IMG/VR virus record: IMGVR_UViG_3300015610_000614
Location: 1 to 35,693 of that record
Source of the DNA: a virus
Lineage: Duplodnaviria > Heunggongvirae > Uroviricota > Caudoviricetes
Strand: one strand, 5' to 3'
DNA length: 35,693 nucleotides
Made by a program: the position numbers and the translations under genes. Below the pieces are notes generated by a model. It was not told the DNA's origin. It was given only the letters and a program-made list of their open reading frames with translations, and ran no database searches. The stretch's first letter is position 1. Each line of letters starts with the position of its first letter. Below are positions 170 through 7,972 of this stretch, piece by piece.

Positions 170-703
170 TCAAATAACGTCTTTATCACGAAAGATTTCT
201 AGACAGCGTAGATAATCTTTATGAGTAAAACCAAACTCAGCATCAGTATGTACAAAATTGCAGCTTTGATGCTCTAGCATATCGGAATCATCATCAATGA
301 TTACGTAGTCATAAAACTCGCCGCCGTACTTATTGAGCCAGTACTCAATTTCAACACCACGTTTGCCATTGATTACTGGAGTTCGATCAATAACATGACC
401 TGTTAGACCAAATGCTTCCATGTACGTCTGCATTTTATACAAATTAGATACATGCTTACGATGCGTAGAACTAACTACGATTTTAGCCCTAGTAATGTCG
501 GTTAGACGATTAATAAGTGCTACAGCAATAGGATCAATGTAGTTAGTTACCTGATGCTCGTAGGCACTAATGATTTCAGCATCATGACTAAATACGCGAC
601 GATAGCCTTCTTCAGAAATTTTACGGGCCGCAGGCCCTAGAGCATAGGTGCTACGCGTAGAATTAAGAACGCCATCAACATCTAGAAAAATATACTTATT
701 CAT
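170..703 (-). CDS. HAD-family phosphatase, HAD_SAK_2 (RNA-repair associated) type
   Basis: FLDVDGVLNS, IVVSSTHR, YVIIDDDSDM and FVHTD..GFT motifs. Confidence 0.85.
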   Translation of the reverse strand: MNKYIFLDVDGVLNSTRSTYALGPAARKISEEGYRRVFSHDAEIISAYEHQVTNYIDPIAVALINRLTDITRAKIVVSSTHRKHVSNLYKMQTYMEAFGLTGHVIDRTPVINGKRGVEIEYWLNKYGGEFYDYVIIDDDSDMLEHQSCNFVHTDAEFGFTHKDYLRCLEIFRDKDVI

Positions 704-4213: not shown

Positions 4214-4408
4214 TTATTTTGTAAAGTAATTAATCAGCGTACCTATTTTGTCAGCATAGGCACCTATAACAAGTAACATACCTACAGCAAACACTGTTCC
4301 AGCAGCAATCACTTTACTAGTCGCCGCTGTACTAGAAATGTTCAGTGTAATAATTTCTAGAGTAAGTATCTTTAGTTTGAATTCGTAAGTAGTATTTTCA
4401 GTTGTCAT
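4214..4408 (-). CDS. small membrane protein
   Basis: 64 aa with hydrophobic C-terminal segment. Confidence 0.6.
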   Translation of the reverse strand: MTTENTTYEFKLKILTLEIITLNISSTAATSKVIAAGTVFAVGMLLVIGAYADKIGTLINYFTK

Positions 4409-4415
4409 AATACTA

Positions 4416-4499
4416 TGGAGGAAGATAACTGAATCGAACAGTCACCGTTTCCAATGGCAGGGATTTCAAGTCCCCTTTGCTCCCAGAGCGCTATCTTCC
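4416..4499 (-). tRNA. tRNA-Ser(TGA)
   Basis: Loop CTTGAAA, long variable arm, CCA. Confidence 0.88.
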
Positions 4500-4521
4500 T
4501 TAAAATCTATTACACTATTAA

Positions 4522-4611
4522 TGGTGGTAGGACAAGGATTCGAACCTTGGCAGCTATCTCTAACTGGCTACTGTTTAGCAAACAGGCACATTTCCACTCT
4601 GTCAGCCTACC
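4522..4611 (-). tRNA. tRNA-Ser(GCT)
   Basis: Loop TTGCTAA, long variable arm, CCA. Confidence 0.9.
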
Positions 4612-4694
4612 AATATGTCAGTTTCGTGGATAAATAATCTATATCCCCGAAACTTGGAGTCGAACCAAGAAGTAAGTATTATTATCAACAATAG
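4612..4694 (-). ncRNA. Y RNA (YrlA-like) element A, truncated
   Basis: 5' TGTTGA...TTACTTC then T-arm CTTGG-TTCGACT-CCAAG and long hairpin; 3' GTTAC strand missing. Confidence 0.5.
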
Positions 4695-4706
4695 TTTTAA
4701 AATATG

Positions 4707-4803
4707 ACCGAGAACTACTAAAACGAGTGCCGACTCGAACGGCTAAGTTTTCTTTTTGAGAGAAATTATCAACCAATGATGTAATCGTTTTAATCACTAC
4801 GGT
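4707..4803 (-). ncRNA. Y RNA (YrlA-like) element B
   Basis: ACCG-TAGTG...TAAAACGA-TTACATC...GCCG-TTCGAGT-CGGC...TCGTTTTA...TTCT-CGGT. Confidence 0.65.
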
Positions 4804-4813
4804 GTATTTAATA

Positions 4814-4898
4814 ACCTGTAACATGCAAAACACTGACTGCCTTTCGGCAAATGGTTAGAATTAAGAGTTCTAGAAGTAAGTGTTTTTATCAACAAGGT
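4814..4898 (-). ncRNA. Y RNA (YrlA-like) element C
   Basis: ACCT-TGTTG...AAAACAC-TTACTTC...GTGTTTT...GTTAC-AGGT; internal TGCC-GAAA-GGCA hairpin. Confidence 0.7.
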
Positions 4899-4907
4899 TT
4901 GAGAATA

Positions 4908-4974
4908 TACTGTAACAAGTATAGCAGCACGTTTTTACACCGAAAGTAGAAGTATCTGCTAAAAACAACAAGTA
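4908..4974 (-). ncRNA. Y RNA (YrlA-like) element D, minimal
   Basis: TACT-TGTTG...TAGCAG-ATACTTC...CTGCTA...GTTAC-AGTA inside a perfect 15-bp stem (4896-4910/4972-4986). Confidence 0.65.
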
Positions 4975-4989
4975 TATTCTCAAACCCTC

Positions 4990-5680
4990 GTCAGGATAAG
5001 AGGCACCAGATTACCGCAAGCATACGAAGCGTTACGGAAGTCGACTGACTACGAACATTCGATTGGCCTAATCGAATGGGTACTGGATTTTTACATCGTT
5101 TTGCCGAGGACTGACTCACTCGTTAAGCCGGGCGATTTAGCCGGTTACTCCACGATTTTTACCGAAATTATTGCCGCGTTTAGGCCTCAGTTTTGTAGCA
5201 CCTAGAGTGGTTTCCTGCTCGAAGATGCATCTGGCTTCGGAATAAAATAACACCACTGCCTATAATATATCGAAGGACTCGCTTCCTATAAGCTAACTCT
5301 GACTGGTTACATGGATTGACTATGCTTTAAATACTTGTCCAATTGCATAGTTTCGTGTGGATTTATATTGCGGTTTCGTTTAGCTTGCTCACCGATATTA
5401 CTCGATAGGGTATCTCTCCCTATTATCTATGATGGTACGCTACGCAACTAAGTTTCTATGTTTTACATCCCCGAAACTATAAGATGTTGCCCCTAACTCA
5501 TCTCGACTGGCTACGCACATACCGGACGTTGGCACCCGGTAACGGTATAGGGTTCCTAGATTATAGCTCTAGGCCGCATTGACAGTACCCTTCGACTGGC
5601 TGACTACAGTTCATATAAGCAGGGATTTACACGGTAGCTAATTGACGGTGGTAGCAATTAAGCCTCTGCCGAGGCACCGC
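4990..5680 (-). ncRNA. putative large structured ncRNA downstream of Ro60
   Basis: About 690 nt without an ORF in the track; long-range helices 5072-5085/5583-5595 and 5347-5355/5472-5480; motif GTAG(T/C)CAGTCGA three times. Confidence 0.55.
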
Positions 5681-5686
5681 ACATTC

Positions 5687-7012
5687 TTAAATAGAGAATT
5701 CCTTCTCTAGAGCTTGAATGTAATCAATAGATGCTTCGGAGAAGCCGGTGATGGTTTCCCACTCACCGCTATTGATACCGTTTTGGTATGTACCTACATT
5801 TAGGAAGTAGCCCTTATCGCCACCGTAAGCCTTAGGACCGCGAACACGATCATGCGATTGTTCATCAGTGATGACAATAATACGATCAGATTTGCTATCA
5901 GCAAACTGGCTTAGCGACTCGCCTAGCCTAGTACCAGTACAGTGTTGGCTGTTCTTAATAGCATCGGCTAGAGCGAACCCTCGATGGGCAGGGATACGTA
6001 GTGCGTGACCACTGAAGCTGTAGATTTCTACTTCTTCGCAGATTTCACGGCAAAGCATACCAAGTGCTAGAATAGCATCCTGACGGGTTAGGTCAGACTT
6101 TGCACTTACAGGAACACCGAAAGTGCTGCTAGACACGTCTAGGTAGAGCTTAGTCTTACCAGGAAGCTTTTCACAAGTTGCAAGCGAGCGAATCATCATG
6201 TCTTCTAGCATATCCTCAAACTGAGGAACGATACGAGCTGCTGCAATGTAGCGGAAAGGAAGAACACGCGAAGCATCCACTTCCTTTGCGTATGCACGAA
6301 TCATAGATTCGTCAATACCGGCCTGTACCATATTACGAAGATTACGAAGGAAAGCAAGAGCACCAAGCTTACGTTCCGCCATTAGACGCTCAAACGTTTC
6401 CTTCTTATCAGCGCCCGCAGATAGCTGGGTTTCCCAAGTATCAGGAGTCTTCAGTTGCTGATTTGCTACTTTACGGAAAAGTTCTGCCTGCTCAACAGAG
6501 GTAGGCTTAACGTGAGTTAGGAACATAACATCACGGATACGAATAGCAGCAGAGTTACGGTCGTACTTTGCAAGTTGGTATTCGTTGAACTTACCGAAGG
6601 CCTTAGCTAGACCCTTCTTTACCTGGTTGCTGATAGGGGTCTTACCCTCAGACCAGTATAGAGATAGGAAGTCACCCATCTCGTCCGCACGCTGAATAAC
6701 GCTATTAAGCGTATCAGCGGTAAGCGCTGACTTACGAGCAAGCTCGCGAGCAAGCACTAGCGGAATATGACGCAGCTTAAACTTGCTACGTGCAGCGATC
6801 GCTAGGTTTTGCACAAACTTAGGATCGACCTTTGCAACCAGTTCCTTCACCAGTTGATGCGTGGTCTTGCCATCGACATAGAACTGATCTTGGAACAGTA
6901 GATTAGCTAGTACAAGGCGTACTAGTTGTTGTTCTTGAGGAATGCTACGAACAGCAGTACCGGCTGCATTAACAGTCATAGGAGCGGATACGCGACGATT
7001 GAAGCTACTCAC
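5687..7012 (-). CDS. rsr: Ro60/TROVE-domain ribonucleoprotein with C-terminal vWA domain
   Basis: FQDQFYVDG, KFNEYQLAKYDR, TPDTWETQLS, LGALAFLRNLRNM, RVLPFRYIAA, YLDVSSST (MIDAS-like), IIVITDEQS. Confidence 0.95.
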   Translation of the reverse strand: MSSFNRRVSAPMTVNAAGTAVRSIPQEQQLVRLVLANLLFQDQFYVDGKTTHQLVKELVAKVDPKFVQNLAIAARSKFKLRHIPLVLARELARKSALTADTLNSVIQRADEMGDFLSLYWSEGKTPISNQVKKGLAKAFGKFNEYQLAKYDRNSAAIRIRDVMFLTHVKPTSVEQAELFRKVANQQLKTPDTWETQLSAGADKKETFERLMAERKLGALAFLRNLRNMVQAGIDESMIRAYAKEVDASRVLPFRYIAAARIVPQFEDMLEDMMIRSLATCEKLPGKTKLYLDVSSSTFGVPVSAKSDLTRQDAILALGMLCREICEEVEIYSFSGHALRIPAHRGFALADAIKNSQHCTGTRLGESLSQFADSKSDRIIVITDEQSHDRVRGPKAYGGDKGYFLNVGTYQNGINSGEWETITGFSEASIDYIQALEKEFSI

Positions 7013-7059
7013 GATTTATTTCCTTTTTGATTAATTTAAGAATATATTATATAGTTAAA

Positions 7060-7188
7060 ACAGGTAACAAACAAGACAGAATTTTTAGCGCTCTATCCGC
7101 TGAGCTACCTTGGCTTTCGGCCTCGGGATGGATTCGAACCATCGACCTCTCCATTAGCAGTGGAAGTAACTGTCTTAATCAACACTGT
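7060..7188 (-). ncRNA. Y RNA (YrlA-like) element E, complete permuted tRNA-like domain
   Basis: ACAG-TGTTG..AAGACAG-TTACTTC; T-arm GATGG-TTCGAAT-CCCATC; acceptor stem closed by GAAA loop; D-arm GCTC-AGCGGATA-GAGC; CTGTCTT..GTTAC-CTGT. Confidence 0.85.
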
Positions 7189-7201
7189 TTATAAAATATT
7201 T

Positions 7202-7332
7202 GCCGAGAATAAGTTAAATAGGCTTGTTTGAGACTACTATCTTACCATTAGATGACACTTAAAGTAAGTGCTAGGAATCGAACCTAGATTCGCAGTTTTG
7301 GTTTAAAGAAGTAACTATTTATGCACTACGGC
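7202..7332 (-). ncRNA. Y RNA (YrlA-like) element F, complete permuted tRNA-like domain
   Basis: GCCG-TAGTG..AAATAG-TTACTTC; T-arm CTAGG-TTCGATT-CCTAG; closed acceptor CACTTA/TAAGTG; D-arm ATCT-AATGGTA-AGAT; CTATTT..TTCT-CGGC. Confidence 0.85.
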
Positions 7333-7436
7333 GAATTATTGGAAGCGACGTATACCTAACGATCACTAGGATCGACCAAGACTTCCTTTGATATACGTTA
7401 TTACTGTGTTCTTGTCACACGCGATCACAAACTTAA

Positions 7437-7553
7437 AGTCGGTAACGGTTAAAACTGGTAATTGCACCCATGCCCACTTGTGCACGACGGAATCGAACCG
7501 TCTAGGTTTTTTATTGCCGAAAAATAGAAGTAACAGTTTAGATCAACACGACT
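7437..7553 (-). ncRNA. Y RNA (YrlA-like) element G
   Basis: AGTCG-TGTTG..AAACTG-TTACTTC; T-arm GACGG-TTCGATT-CCGTC; CAGTTT..GTTAC-CGACT. Confidence 0.8.
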
Positions 7554-7772
7554 AATGTTAGAAAACATAATTCTCTAACATTAGCCTATGCGCATAGGCT
7601 AACGGGTCCGATGGGCAACCAGCCCAGGTGTACGTGCTCGGCATTCCAACTTACACACGTTTTATTTTTAACAAAAAGCTGCTGAGAATAACCGTGACAG
7701 TTATCTGGTCTTACTTTTAACGAGGCAGGACTAGTAATTCTCGTTGTCACTATTGTTTGCGATATATGACAC

Positions 7773-7858
7773 ACCGCGAATAATTTAGTGGTTACTTTAT
7801 AATAGAAGTAACTGATCTTAACAGAAAGTATTTAACTTTCTGCTACTCTCACTACAGT
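7773..7858 (-). ncRNA. Y RNA (YrlA-like) element H, degenerate
   Basis: ACTG-TAGTG...GTTACTTC...ATTCG-CGGT with inserted hairpin; no T-arm. Confidence 0.45.
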
Positions 7859-7972
7859 AGCTTTTAGTTTAAATAAAAACTAGCACGTAAGTTCCATGGA
7901 GCAGGATTTAACCAGAAAGGAGACATTTTACGTGAAAGGCCTGATAGGACCTATCCTTACGTGCTAGTATAT

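What the first reader, a model, noticed from the sequence alone, without database searches (positions are those of the whole stretch)
4612..7858. Ro60 gene embedded in an array of eight Y RNA-like, circularly permuted tRNA mimics
Seen: four related elements lie on each side of the TROVE gene. Each has a terminal 4-5 bp stem whose sequence varies but whose pairing is kept. Next comes a symmetric non-Watson-Crick loop in two classes (UGUUG/GUUAC or UAGUG/xUUCU), a second covarying stem, and an unpaired UUACUUC. Copies E and F carry a T-arm, an acceptor stem closed by a loop, then a D-arm, which is a permuted tRNA. The others step down through T-arm only (A, B, G) to no tRNA domain (C, D, H). Known: bacterial Ro60 (Rsr) binds YrlA RNAs that have tRNA-like domains. 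Inference: a phage panel of Ro60 RNAs with a constant binding module and interchangeable effector domains, possibly decoys or tethers for host RNases or anti-tRNA defences.
Basis: partly seen in the sequence, partly recalled or inferred. Interest (0 to 1): 0.88.

Follow-up and report, generated by a model that had tools for sequence, protein, structure and literature searches.

The report
Phage Ro60 gene flanked by Y RNAs
A phage gene for the RNA-binding ring protein Ro60 sits in a row of small RNA genes that share one conserved Ro60-type docking stem but carry different heads, two of them tRNA look-alikes; this is a larger, divergent version of the known bacterial Y RNA system, and it also occurs unannotated in cultured phages.

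Summary
Covariance models built only from other viral contigs find six copies in the window: E, D, F, B, C and G, at E 1e-9 to 1e-6. All lie on the Ro60 strand, and there are no other hits in the 99.7-kb genome.

H is atypical. Its outer stems and loops are canonical, but UUACUUC is displaced 28 nt inward. A has a canonical 5' half, while its closing strand seems to lie beyond two tRNA-Ser genes, at about 4401-4414.

E (108 bits, E 9e-28) and F (62 bits, E 4e-15) match a tRNA-like model with a T arm, a closed acceptor stem and a D arm. E also has an anticodon-arm mimic.

The shared module is a divergent form of the published YrlA Ro60-binding stem (GNCGAA becomes RNYGWW, then YUAY as UUAC). 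No tested locus reaches the Rfam YrlA threshold.

The same family forms arrays of 2-9 copies beside Ro60 in about 55 viral contigs, in cultured phages (CcrColossus 8, Xanthomonas 10KY502B 5, crAss001 3) and in bacteria. In five whole genomes searched, it occurs only beside Ro60.

Verdict: these are real Y RNA genes and a scaled-up variant of a known system. Ro60 binding and function remain untested.

The parts
7678..7861 (-). Element H: atypical Y-like RNA. Outer P1 7855-7861/7678-7684, UAGUGAGA, P2 7840-7846/7694-7700, GGUUAUUCU. UUACUUC (7805-7811) is displaced 28 nt into the head and can pair in a hairpin.
   Evidence: Pairing read by hand. MFE z-score -3.3. R2 gives only E 0.14, on an inner register at 7712-7830.
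7437..7553 (-). Element G: P1 AGUCG/CGACU, UGUUG..GUUAC, P2 AAACUG/CAGUUU, UUACUUC. The head has a T arm (GACGG UUCGAUU CCGUC) and a stem-loop in the acceptor position, with no D arm.
   Evidence: R2 33.8 bits, E 9.2e-7. R3 33.5 bits, E 2.4e-7, with the D arm deleted. MFE keeps the module.
7201..7333 (-). Element F: tRNA-like Y RNA. UAGUG..AUUCU class, T arm CUAGG/CCUAG, closed 6-bp acceptor stem CACUUA/UAAGUG, D arm AUCU-AAUGGUA-AGAU (the D-arm type seen in L026, L019 and L058:2529). No anticodon-like hairpin.
   Evidence: R2 41.3 bits, E 8.8e-9. R3 61.8 bits, E 4.4e-15, full length. No 7-nt-loop hairpin found.
7058..7190 (-). Element E: complete circularly permuted tRNA mimic on a Ro-type stem. 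Order: anticodon-like arm UUCCA-CUGCUAA-UGGAG, AGGUC, T arm, closed acceptor stem, UA, D arm GCUC-AGCGGAUA-GAGC.
   Evidence: R3 108.3 bits, E 9.4e-28, full length. R2 44.3 bits, E 1.4e-9. Rfam YrlA 29.9 bits, E 0.0012, below the gathering score of 69. Anticodon-arm spacing.
5687..7012 (-). Ro60 (TROVE + vWA) gene, 441 aa.
   Evidence: Pfam TROVE 3.7e-15. Nearest solved structure is Thermus phage phiLo Ro60, 9KOP/9L5Y, E 4e-18. 57-65% identical to Ro60 of other about 100-kb viral contigs.
4989..5686 (-). About 700-nt non-coding spacer between Ro60 and element D. Not part of the Y family by the models. Holds five hairpin-loop motifs UAGYCAGU and a GUCGAAGG box.
   Evidence: MFE z-score +0.84, so no thermodynamic signal. 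No Rfam family. Not collinear with the L007 spacer.
4894..4988 (-). Element D: minimal class. 15-18-bp P1, UGUUG..GUUAC, P2 UAGCAG/CUGCUA, AUACUUC, 21-nt loop with GGUGUAAAAAC. Its 3' strand overlaps the 5' strand of C by about 6 nt.
   Evidence: R2 44.1 bits, E 1.6e-9. MFE z-score -6.0. Positional orthologues with 18-19-bp P1 lie just downstream of Ro60 in L003, L006, L007, L009 and L013.
4813..4899 (-). Element C: the head is a 5-bp hairpin with 7-nt loop CUCUUAA, then CUAACCA, then a GAAA-tetraloop hairpin UGCC-GAAA-GGCA.
   Evidence: R2 37.3 bits, E 1.1e-7. Same head class in L018:4551, L007:5100, L006:4535 and L009:2592.
4706..4804 (-). Element B: UAGUG..GUUCU class, 10-bp P2, UUACAUC. 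The head has a short T arm, GCCG UUCGAGU CGGC.
   Evidence: R2 39.3 bits, E 3.2e-8. MFE z-score -2.3, and the centroid equals the module.
4612..4700 (-). Element A, 5' part: canonical UGUUGAU, P2 5' strand AUAAUAC, UUACUUC, T arm UUGG UUCGACU CCAA, then a long hairpin UUUCGGGGAUA../..UAUCCACGAAA. No closing strands here.
   Evidence: Full-length orthologues at L007:4968-5091 and L002:2555-2692. Not detected by R2.
4416..4611 (-). tRNA-Ser(GCU) 4522-4611 and tRNA-Ser(UGA) 4416-4499, sitting where A's orthologues carry a third hairpin.
   Evidence: ARAGORN. Rfam tRNA.
4394..4415 (-). Probable closing strand of A. AGUAUUAU (4407-4414), GA bulge, CAAC (4401-4404) pairs with GUUG-AUAAUACU of A: 12 bp directly after the CCA of tRNA-Ser(UGA).
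   Evidence: The MFE and the centroid of 4385-4712 both keep this long-range helix. Recovered by the script.

Best explanation
The region is a phage Ro60 locus with an array of Y RNA genes. These belong to a divergent branch of the bacterial YrlA/YrlB kind.

Each RNA pairs its 5' and 3' ends into a docking stem: P1, a bulged U, two more pairs, a Y-G/U-U mismatch box, then P2. This stem carries a degenerate form of the GNCGAA Ro60-binding motif, followed by a near-invariant (U)UACUUC.

Shown here: the module, its covariation, its exclusive linkage to Ro60, and the tRNA-like heads of E and F.

Inferred: the phage Ro60 ring binds this stem, as shown for X. laevis Ro60, D. radiodurans Rsr and Thermus phage phiLo Ro60 with their own Y RNAs. 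The different heads then act as adaptors or gates. The head types are a complete permuted tRNA with an anticodon-arm mimic (E), a tRNA elbow (F), a T arm only (G, B, A), a GNRA hairpin (C) and a minimal purine-rich loop (D). They would tether Ro60 to different host or phage RNA-handling proteins, such as PNPase and tRNA-binding enzymes, or control access of other RNAs to the ring during infection.

The RNAs are probably cut out of the same long transcript as the flanking tRNAs. Element A seems to enclose two tRNA-Ser genes inside its stem.
For: Model-free evidence:
- TTACTTC occurs 139 times on the Ro60 strand against 37 on the other strand in 54 related loci, clustered just beside Ro60.
- About 100 of these carry P1/P2 stems whose sequences all differ.

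Covariance models built without window sequences:
- R1 found 110 hits, R2 found 186 viral and 119 bacterial hits, and every one lies on the Ro60 strand.
- Six window copies score E 1e-9 to 1e-6.
- These are the only hits in the 99.7-kb genome.
- In CcrColossus and in three of four 4-5-Mb bacterial genomes the hits lie only next to Ro60. The fourth, G002, gave no hit at that threshold.

Covariation:
- 93.5% of cells paired, all 15 of 15 pairs with double changes, covariation score 0.88 against 0.22 shuffled and 0.11-0.16 slid.
- On a plain MAFFT alignment of 27 tRNA-like members, RNAalifold itself predicts P1, P2, T arm, closed acceptor and D arm, with 27 of 29 compensated pairs. The covariation score is 0.81 against 0.23.
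- E and F match this model full length.

Link to the known family:
- The relatives' 5' loop UGGCGAAG is the published GNCGAAN0-1G box, and UUAC fits the published YUAY (PMC4201824).
- Rfam YrlA gives sub-threshold but significant hits to E and to R2-positive elements of Rhizobium and actinophage loci.
- A phage Ro60 has been shown to bind phage Y-like RNAs and host PNPase (PMC12135203).
Against: - No expression or binding data exist for this family.
- The window copies do not keep the canonical box. They have GUUGAU or AGUGAU where the box is GNCGAA. Single C-to-U or A-to-U changes lowered phiLo Ro60 affinity 3-4 fold.
- Rfam YrlA scores 29.9 bits against a gathering score of 69. None of 20 related loci reaches that score.
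- Thermodynamic z-scores of E, F and G are weak: -0.96, -1.38 and +0.49.
- There are no convincing promoters or terminators between the elements, so discrete genes are assumed, not shown.
- A and H depart from the module.
- The seeds of the models were picked with an exact TTACTTC anchor and a pairing filter, and alignments A3 and A4 are fitted to the model. The invariance of UACUUC and the percentage paired are therefore partly built in. The two extra pairs, the strand bias and the plain alignment A7 are not.
- The model E-values come from a short calibration and are rough.
Confidence: 0.74

Rival explanations
1. The Ro60-bound tRNA mimics are decoys or baits. The complete permuted tRNAs, with exposed anticodon-like loops CUNNNAA, and the T-arm heads soak up or sense host anticodon nucleases, tRNA-modifying enzymes or RNases. 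This would protect the phage's own large tRNA set. Tethering to a degradation machine would be secondary.
For: - E and about 14 of 29 tRNA-like relatives have a 5-bp stem, a 7-nt loop with U33- and R37-like positions, and a 5-nt spacer to the T stem. That is the spacing of a real anticodon arm.
- The loop triplets vary: UGU, GUU, GCU, UAU, UUU.
- E's loop triplet GCU equals that of the phage tRNA-Ser(GCU).
- The locus lies inside a 23-tRNA cluster, with a HAD domain of RNA-repair proteins nearby.
Against: - The same arrays occur in 43-kb Xanthomonas phages without tRNA clusters and in bacterial chromosomes.
- Most elements, including five or six of the eight here, have no tRNA body or only a T arm.
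- No RtcB or Rnl2 ligase is found in the genome.
- No nuclease target is known to match the loop set.
Confidence: 0.15
2. The stems are cis-acting processing or folding signals of the long tRNA/Ro60 precursor transcript, for example RNase III or RNase E entry sites or insulators between tRNAs. They would not be ligands of Ro60, and the link to Ro60 would reflect shared operon history.
For: - No internal promoters or terminators are seen.
- D-type elements have 15-19-bp perfect P1 helices that overlap the next element.
- Element A's stem encloses two tRNA genes and ends right at a CCA.
Against: - Processing signals would not need a near-invariant single-stranded UACUUC, G10 and U-U box across Ro60 proteins only 33-65% identical.
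- They would not be expected to occur exclusively beside Ro60 in 4-5-Mb genomes.
- They would not need to keep the known Ro-binding box.
- Arrays also occur where no tRNA genes are near.
Confidence: 0.08
3. They are decayed or permuted tRNA genes: either relics of duplication in a tRNA cluster, or permuted genes that are processed into working tRNAs.
For: - The tRNA covariance model touches E (19.6 bits).
- GenBank annotates parts of homologous elements as tRNA-Thr, tRNA-Gln and tRNA-Ser.
- E contains every tRNA arm.
Against: - The acceptor stem is closed by a 5-nt loop, has two mismatches and has no CCA.
- E carries GCU (Ser) without the long variable arm of tRNA-Ser.
- Relics would not keep compensatory changes in 27 of 29 pairs or a conserved non-tRNA stem.
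- Five or six of the eight have no tRNA body or only a T arm.
Confidence: 0.03

Closest known systems
YrlA / YrlB Y RNAs of Salmonella Typhimurium and other bacteria (Chen et al. 2014, PMC4201824; Rfam RF02553; crystal structure 6CU1)
   Same: - Encoded beside Ro60 on the same strand.
- 5' and 3' ends pair into a stem with a GNCGAA-type box on the 5' strand.
- YUAY lies before the head.
- The head has a T arm, a closed acceptor stem and a D arm (E, F).
- A partner without the tRNA body exists, as with YrlB.
   Different: - The box is degenerate here (RNYGWW).
- UACUUC is near-invariant.
- Scores stay below the Rfam threshold (29.9 against 69).
- There are 6-8 paralogues here and up to 9 in relatives, instead of 1-2.
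- E has a 5-bp/7-nt anticodon-arm mimic, whereas S. Typhimurium YrlA is described as lacking an anticodon loop.
- Several head classes have no tRNA features.
Thermus phage phiLo Ro60 with Yrl1 and Yrl2 (PMC12135203, 2025; PDB 9KOP, 9L5Y)
   Same: - Phage-encoded Ro60, the nearest solved structure to this protein.
- Y-like RNAs lie next to the gene, with a stem-bulge-stem carrying CGAA.
- Binding to Ro60 and to host PNPase was shown there.
   Different: - Two RNAs rather than an array.
- No tRNA-like heads are described.
- The phiLo locus could not be tested with my models, because it was not among the listed hits in the phage collection.
Deinococcus radiodurans Yrn1/Yrn2 and the RYPER machine (Rsr-Y RNA-PNPase)
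   Same: A modular Y RNA: one end binds the Ro60 ring, the other tethers an effector. The genes lie upstream of rsr on the same strand.
   Different: A metazoan-like binding helix and different heads. The effector is known there (PNPase) and unknown here.
YrlA-like RNAs of mycobacteriophages, CcrColossus and Bacillus phage G (reported in Chen et al. 2014, as cited in PMC12135203)
   Same: Phage Ro60 with adjacent tRNA-like Y RNAs. CcrColossus carries the same family as this window (8 R2 hits).
   Different: The 2014 search used a model of the tRNA-like form. I could not read its tables, so I cannot say whether the non-tRNA members and the full array were reported. GenBank records leave the elements unannotated or call parts of them tRNA.
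Circularly permuted tRNA genes of the red alga Cyanidioschyzon merolae (own knowledge)
   Same: The 3' part of the tRNA body is encoded before the 5' part, with the acceptor strands joined by a short linker.
   Different: Those are matured into working tRNAs through a circular intermediate. Here the acceptor stays closed, there is no CCA, and the opening at nt 26/27 carries a Ro60-type stem.

Membership tests
YrlA (Rfam RF02553; Chen et al. 2014) | Encoded within about 4 kb of a Ro60 orthologue on the same strand | tested here: met
   All eight elements lie within 1.1 kb of the TROVE gene on its strand. The same holds for 186 viral and 119 bacterial hits.
YrlA (Rfam RF02553; Chen et al. 2014) | GNCGAAN0-1G motif near the 5' end | tested here: not met
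   The window copies read GUUGAU, AGUGAU, AGUGCA or GUUGUU at that place. The exact box UGGCGAAG/UAGCGAAG occurs in more distant members of the same model family. Column statistics give U-R-N-Y-G-W-W.
YrlA (Rfam RF02553; Chen et al. 2014) | Head with T arm, closed acceptor-like stem and D arm, preceded by YUAY | tested here: met
   Met for E and F only: R3 108.3 and 61.8 bits, full length. UUAC fits YUAY. G, B and A have a T arm only. C, D and H have none.
YrlA (Rfam RF02553; Chen et al. 2014) | Score at or above the curated Rfam gathering threshold (69 bits) | tested here: not met
   E scores 29.9 bits, E 0.0012. No YrlA hit at the gathering score in the window or in 20 related loci. Actinophage and Rhizobium phage loci reach 36-44 bits.
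Y RNA in the broad sense (Ro60-bound modular ncRNA) | 5' and 3' ends pair into a long stem with a bulge or internal loop that holds conserved bases | tested here: met
   P1, bulged U, 2 bp, Y-G/U-U, P2. 15 of 15 pairs have compensatory changes. This holds for six of the eight window copies.
Y RNA in the broad sense (Ro60-bound modular ncRNA) | Bound and stabilised by the Ro60 protein | not testable with these tools
   Only genomic linkage is available. Needs RIP-seq or EMSA.
tRNA (RF00005) | Collinear cloverleaf with an open acceptor end | tested here: not met
   ARAGORN calls none of the eight. The tRNA model gives 19.6 bits on part of E, against a gathering score of 29. The acceptor is closed by a loop and the arm order is permuted.

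The most novel reading that the evidence does not exclude
The phage carries a Ro60 ribonucleoprotein 'tool set'. One ring protein would be loaded with any of 6-8 adaptor RNAs, and their heads include a complete permuted tRNA with a free anticodon loop. The set would serve tRNA surveillance or counter-defence: baiting host anticodon nucleases or tRNA enzymes, or steering host exonucleases. Through a Y-type stem that encloses two tRNA-Ser genes, it would also be wired directly into maturation of the phage's own pre-tRNAs. The near-invariant UACUUC would be a new Ro60 or partner contact, not described for YrlA.
Probability: 0.15. Interest if true: 0.8.

Novelty: new variant of a known kind. Interest (0 to 1): 0.55.

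Why it matters
The function of bacterial and phage Ro60/Y RNA particles is still largely open, and the effector that binds the tRNA-like head of YrlA is unknown (bioRxiv 10.1101/312249).

This family offers natural series of 2-9 RNAs that keep one docking stem and swap heads. The head classes are conserved, and the arrays occur in phages with tractable hosts: Caulobacter crescentus/CcrColossus, Xanthomonas, and Bacteroides/crAss001. Such a series is a ready-made dissection of which head recruits which partner.

The finding also has practical value:
- The elements are missed by the Rfam YrlA threshold.
- Parts of them are annotated as tRNA genes in GenBank phage records, which inflates phage tRNA counts.
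- The models made here find them specifically.

The finding is not a new kind of system.

Tried and rejected
- RNAduplex of the 5' arm against 240 nt downstream picked longer-range chance duplexes, so I replaced it with a strict descriptor scan.
- A first MAFFT alignment of 30 short elements (A1) was ragged on the 3' side and was not used. A length-matched set of nine (A2) was used instead.
- Rfam at gathering score gave only tRNAs in the window. No YrlA hit at gathering score appeared in 20 related loci.
- Megablast of the region against the phage collection gave no match.
- Aligning H with the first array element of six relatives showed no head homology, so H has no identified orthologue.
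- Aligning the 700-nt spacer with the L007 spacer showed they are not collinear. Its fold is no more stable than shuffles (z +0.84).
- RtcB and Rnl2-type RNA ligase are absent from the genome, so there is no RNA-repair operon context as in Salmonella.
- The short ORFs overlapping the elements have no credible PHROG family; the best is E 0.0028 for 4639-4833.
- A scan for other Y-type stems that enclose tRNA genes in all fetched loci gave only the window's element A and a few unconvincing cases.
- The supplement of Chen 2014 and the 2020 Annual Review were not available. I therefore could not check which phage elements were already listed.
- Full-text searches for UUACUUC in a Y RNA context, and for phage Y RNA arrays, found nothing.
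- Thermus phage phiLo was not among the listed hits in the phage collection, so it could not be tested with the models.

Full report
**Setting.** The window is the first 35.7 kb of a 99,693-bp IMG/VR virus record with terminal repeats, rated complete. ARAGORN finds 23 tRNA genes, all on the minus strand. The 441-aa ORF at 5687-7012 (minus) is a TROVE/Ro60 protein (Pfam 3.7e-15). Its nearest solved relative is the Ro60 of Thermus phage phiLo (9KOP/9L5Y, E 4e-18). Everything below is read on the minus strand.

**Checking the observation.** TTACTTC occurs six times on the minus strand between 4669 and 7811. I wrote a descriptor scan anchored on this word, requiring P2 directly upstream, an internal loop and then P1. 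It recovers clean modules for six elements:
- G, 7553..7437
- F, 7332..7202
- E, 7190..7058
- D, 4988..4894
- C, 4899..4813
- B, 4803..4707

Single-sequence MFE folds show the same closing stems. Thermodynamic z-scores are strong only for D (-6.0) and H (-3.3), and weak for E, F and G.

**Independent test with relatives.**
- The Ro60 protein retrieved 54 related loci from viral contigs, at 24-65% identity.
- TTACTTC is found there 139 times on the Ro60 strand against 37 on the other. It is clustered within a few hundred bases of the gene. About 100 of these sites carry P1 and P2 stems of unrelated sequence.
- Nine short, length-matched elements from other contigs gave alignment A2 and model R1.
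- R1 found 110 hits at E<=0.01 in the 54 loci, every one on the Ro60 strand.
- On that alignment 93.5% of cells pair and all 15 pairs show double changes. The covariation score is 0.88, against 0.22 for shuffles and 0.11-0.16 for slid partners.
- Model R2, built from those hits and holding no window sequence, scores E 1.4e-9, D 1.6e-9, F 8.8e-9, B 3.2e-8, C 1.1e-7 and G 9.2e-7. Nothing else in the window scores below E 0.5, and nothing else is found in the whole genome.
- Caveat: the seeds were chosen with an exact TTACTTC anchor and a pairing filter, and A3 and A4 are fitted to the model. This inflates the percentage paired and the apparent invariance of UACUUC. The strand bias, the position next to Ro60 and the two extra pairs described next were not selected for.

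**What the module really is.**
- G-C and U-A in UGUUG..GUUAC
- A-U and G-C in UAGUG..UUCU
- G-C and G-C in UGGYG..UUCC of relatives

Across 109 sequences the counts are GC 81/AU 27 for the first pair and GC 90/UA 11/CG 5 for the second. Only Y-G (G 100%) facing U-U (94-99%) remains unpaired. P2 follows, ending in G. Then comes U-A-C-U-U-C, each base 95-100% conserved.

In more distant loci the 5' loop reads UGGCGAAG or UAGCGAAG. That is the GNCGAAN0-1G box which Chen et al. 2014 proposed as the Ro60-binding element of YrlA and YrlB. UUAC fits their conserved YUAY. In the window lineage the box has drifted to GUUGAU or AGUGAU.

Rfam's YrlA model hits E at 29.9 bits (E 0.0012, gathering score 69). 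It also hits R2-positive elements of a Rhizobium phage, and actinophage loci, at 36-44 bits. No tested locus reaches the curated threshold. I therefore read the family as a divergent branch of the YrlA/YrlB kind that current Rfam thresholds miss.

**The heads.** Twenty-seven 125-138-nt members from other loci were aligned by plain MAFFT (A7).
- Without guidance, RNAalifold predicts P1, the two extra pairs, P2, a T arm, a stem closed by a loop in the acceptor position, and a D arm. 27 of 29 pairs are compensated.
- The pair-count controls agree: covariation score 0.81 against 0.23 shuffled and 0.12-0.18 slid.
- Model R3, built from A7, matches E full length at 108.3 bits (E 9.4e-28) and F at 61.8 bits (E 4.4e-15). 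G matches with the D arm deleted.
- In E and about 14 of 29 such RNAs, the UUC of UUACUUC opens a 5-bp stem with a 7-nt loop CUNNNAA. In E this is UUCCA-CUGCUAA-UGGAG. Five bases (AGGUC) and the T stem follow. This is the spacing of an anticodon arm plus a class I variable loop.
- E is thus a complete tRNA body opened between positions 26 and 27, with the Ro-type stem attached there. Chen et al. called this hairpin a variable arm, and both readings have the same topology.
- F lacks this hairpin. Its D arm is of the GUCUAAUGG..GGAC type, seen also in L026, L019 and L058.

The other heads also recur as classes in other phages:
- D is the minimal class, with a purine-rich loop of the UUGGYGAAAA type. 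It is often the first element downstream of Ro60 and often has an 18-19-bp P1.
- C is a small hairpin, then CUAACCA, then a GAAA-tetraloop hairpin.
- G and B carry a T arm only.

**The two deviants.**
- H (7678-7861) has a canonical outer frame: P1 GCUACUG/CAGCAGC with one A.C mismatch, UAGUGAGA, P2 GUAGCAG/CUGUCAC and GGUUAUUCU. Its UUACUUC lies 28 nt further in and can pair in a hairpin. R2 gives only E 0.14, on another register. I found no orthologue.
- A (4612-4700) has a canonical 5' half, a T arm and a long hairpin. It has full-length orthologues at L007:4968-5091 and L002:2555-2692, which go on with a third hairpin and the normal closing strands.
- In the window that third hairpin is replaced by tRNA-Ser(GCU) and tRNA-Ser(UGA). 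Directly after the CCA of the second tRNA lies AGUAUUAU-GA-CAAC (4414-4401). It pairs with GUUG-AUAAUACU of A over 12 bp. Both the MFE and the centroid of 4385-4712 keep this helix.
- So A is probably not truncated but encloses two tRNA genes, and the feature reaches beyond the stated coordinates. No convincing second case was found in other loci.

**Distribution.**
- Among cultured phages, the family is present in Xanthomonas phage 10KY502B (5 copies), Caulobacter phage CcrColossus (8), Brevundimonas phage Kikimora (6), Microcystis phage Mvi-JY20 (2), crAss-like cr106_1 (2-3), crAss001 (3) and Rhizobium phage RHph_TM30 (6).
- It is weak in Streptomyces and Gordonia phages. It is absent from Ralstonia RsoM2USA and Vibrio Va1.
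- GenBank leaves the elements unannotated, or calls parts of them tRNA-Thr, tRNA-Gln or tRNA-Ser.
- In viral contigs the arrays hold up to 9 copies: L025 has 9 and L011 has 8.
- Ro60 loci of Caulobacterales, Hyphomonadaceae, Chryseobacterium and Elizabethkingia genomes carry them too. All 119 hits lie on the Ro60 strand within its upstream flank, with up to 8-9 per locus.
- Whole-genome searches of CcrColossus and four 4-5-Mb bacterial genomes find hits only beside Ro60.

**Mechanism.**
- Shown: a conserved, covarying docking stem tied exclusively to Ro60, with swappable and partly tRNA-like heads.
- Inferred from the families involved: Ro60 binds the stem, and the heads act as tethers or gates. 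Y RNAs of D. radiodurans tether Rsr to PNPase. Phage phiLo Ro60 binds two phage Y-like RNAs and host PNPase, and single CGAA changes cost 3-4 fold in affinity (PMC12135203).
- There are no convincing promoters or terminators between the elements. They are probably processed from the tRNA cluster transcript.
- The genome has no RtcB or Rnl2 ligase. A HAD domain of the 'Swiss Army Knife' RNA-repair proteins lies at 170-703.
- The decoy or counter-defence reading is possible but untested.

**Novelty.** Phage Ro60 with adjacent YrlA-like RNAs is known: 22 phages in 2014, CcrColossus included according to PMC12135203, and phiLo in 2025. As far as I could find, the following have not been described:
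- the size of the arrays
- the shared stem on non-tRNA heads with conserved classes
- the near-invariant UACUUC
- the anticodon-arm mimic
- a Y-type stem around tRNA genes

I could not read the 2014 supplementary tables. I rate the finding a new variant of a known kind, of moderate interest.

Noticed in passing
window 4989-5686 (-): The roughly 700-nt non-coding spacer after Ro60 holds five small hairpins with the loop UAGYCAGU (near 5606, 5509, 5305, 5120, 5051) and a GUCGAAGG box at about 5592-5599. A similar hairpin with loop UAGUCAGU lies just after the Ro60 stop in L003, L006, L013, L018 and L045. The fold is no more stable than shuffles (z +0.84), there is no Rfam hit, and the region is not collinear with L007.
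   Followed up: partly
window 7881-7966 (-): An 86-nt hairpin closed by the 11-bp stem UAGCACGUAAG/CUUACGUGCUA lies between tRNA-Lys(CUU) and element H and is followed by a U-rich run. It may be a terminator or another small RNA.
   Followed up: no
L002:~4395-4520, L011:~4255-4350, L007:~4430-4540: A conserved motif of about 110 nt lies downstream of Ro60 in three related phages (GGUUCGAC-UAAACUAAGAAGCGAUAAGA ... GCCUUAGGGAAGGGGUCGAC). It has no Rfam match and is absent as such from the window.
   Followed up: no
L058:2750-2817, L059:2173-2240, L061:2781-2855: GenBank tRNA annotations overlap the tRNA-like Y elements found by R2: tRNA-Thr in Xanthomonas phage 10KY502B, tRNA-Gln in CcrColossus, tRNA-Ser in Brevundimonas phage Kikimora. 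They are probably mis-calls of permuted tRNA mimics.
   Followed up: partly
window 4894-4899; L003:3960-3964, L006:4533-4540, L007:4968-4974: The long P1 of the minimal (D-type) element overlaps the 5' strand of P1 of the next element by 5-8 nt, in the window and in three relatives. The two stems are therefore mutually exclusive at their base.
   Followed up: no
window 170-703 (-): A 177-aa protein with the HAD domain of 'Swiss Army Knife' RNA-repair proteins (PF18143, 4.2e-23) lies inside the tRNA cluster. No RtcB or Rnl2 ligase is found elsewhere in the genome.
   Followed up: partly
L002:5341-5606, L061:6356-6701, L060:377-681: Related Ro60-bearing phages encode tmRNA near the locus. Two have the permuted form (96.7 and 57.7 bits) and one the standard form (crAss-like cr106_1).
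   Followed up: no
window 7334-7436 and 7554-7677 (-): The spacers between F and G and between G and H contain further strong hairpins, for example the palindrome UAGCCUAUGCGCAUAGGCUA and AUGUUAGAGAA..UUUUCUAACAU. These belong to no family tested.
   Followed up: no
L056 (Ralstonia phage RsoM2USA): The closest GenBank Ro60 (50% identity) has no R2 hit within 3 kb on either side. An unannotated tRNA-model hit (59.6 bits) lies at locus 2704-2775.
   Followed up: no
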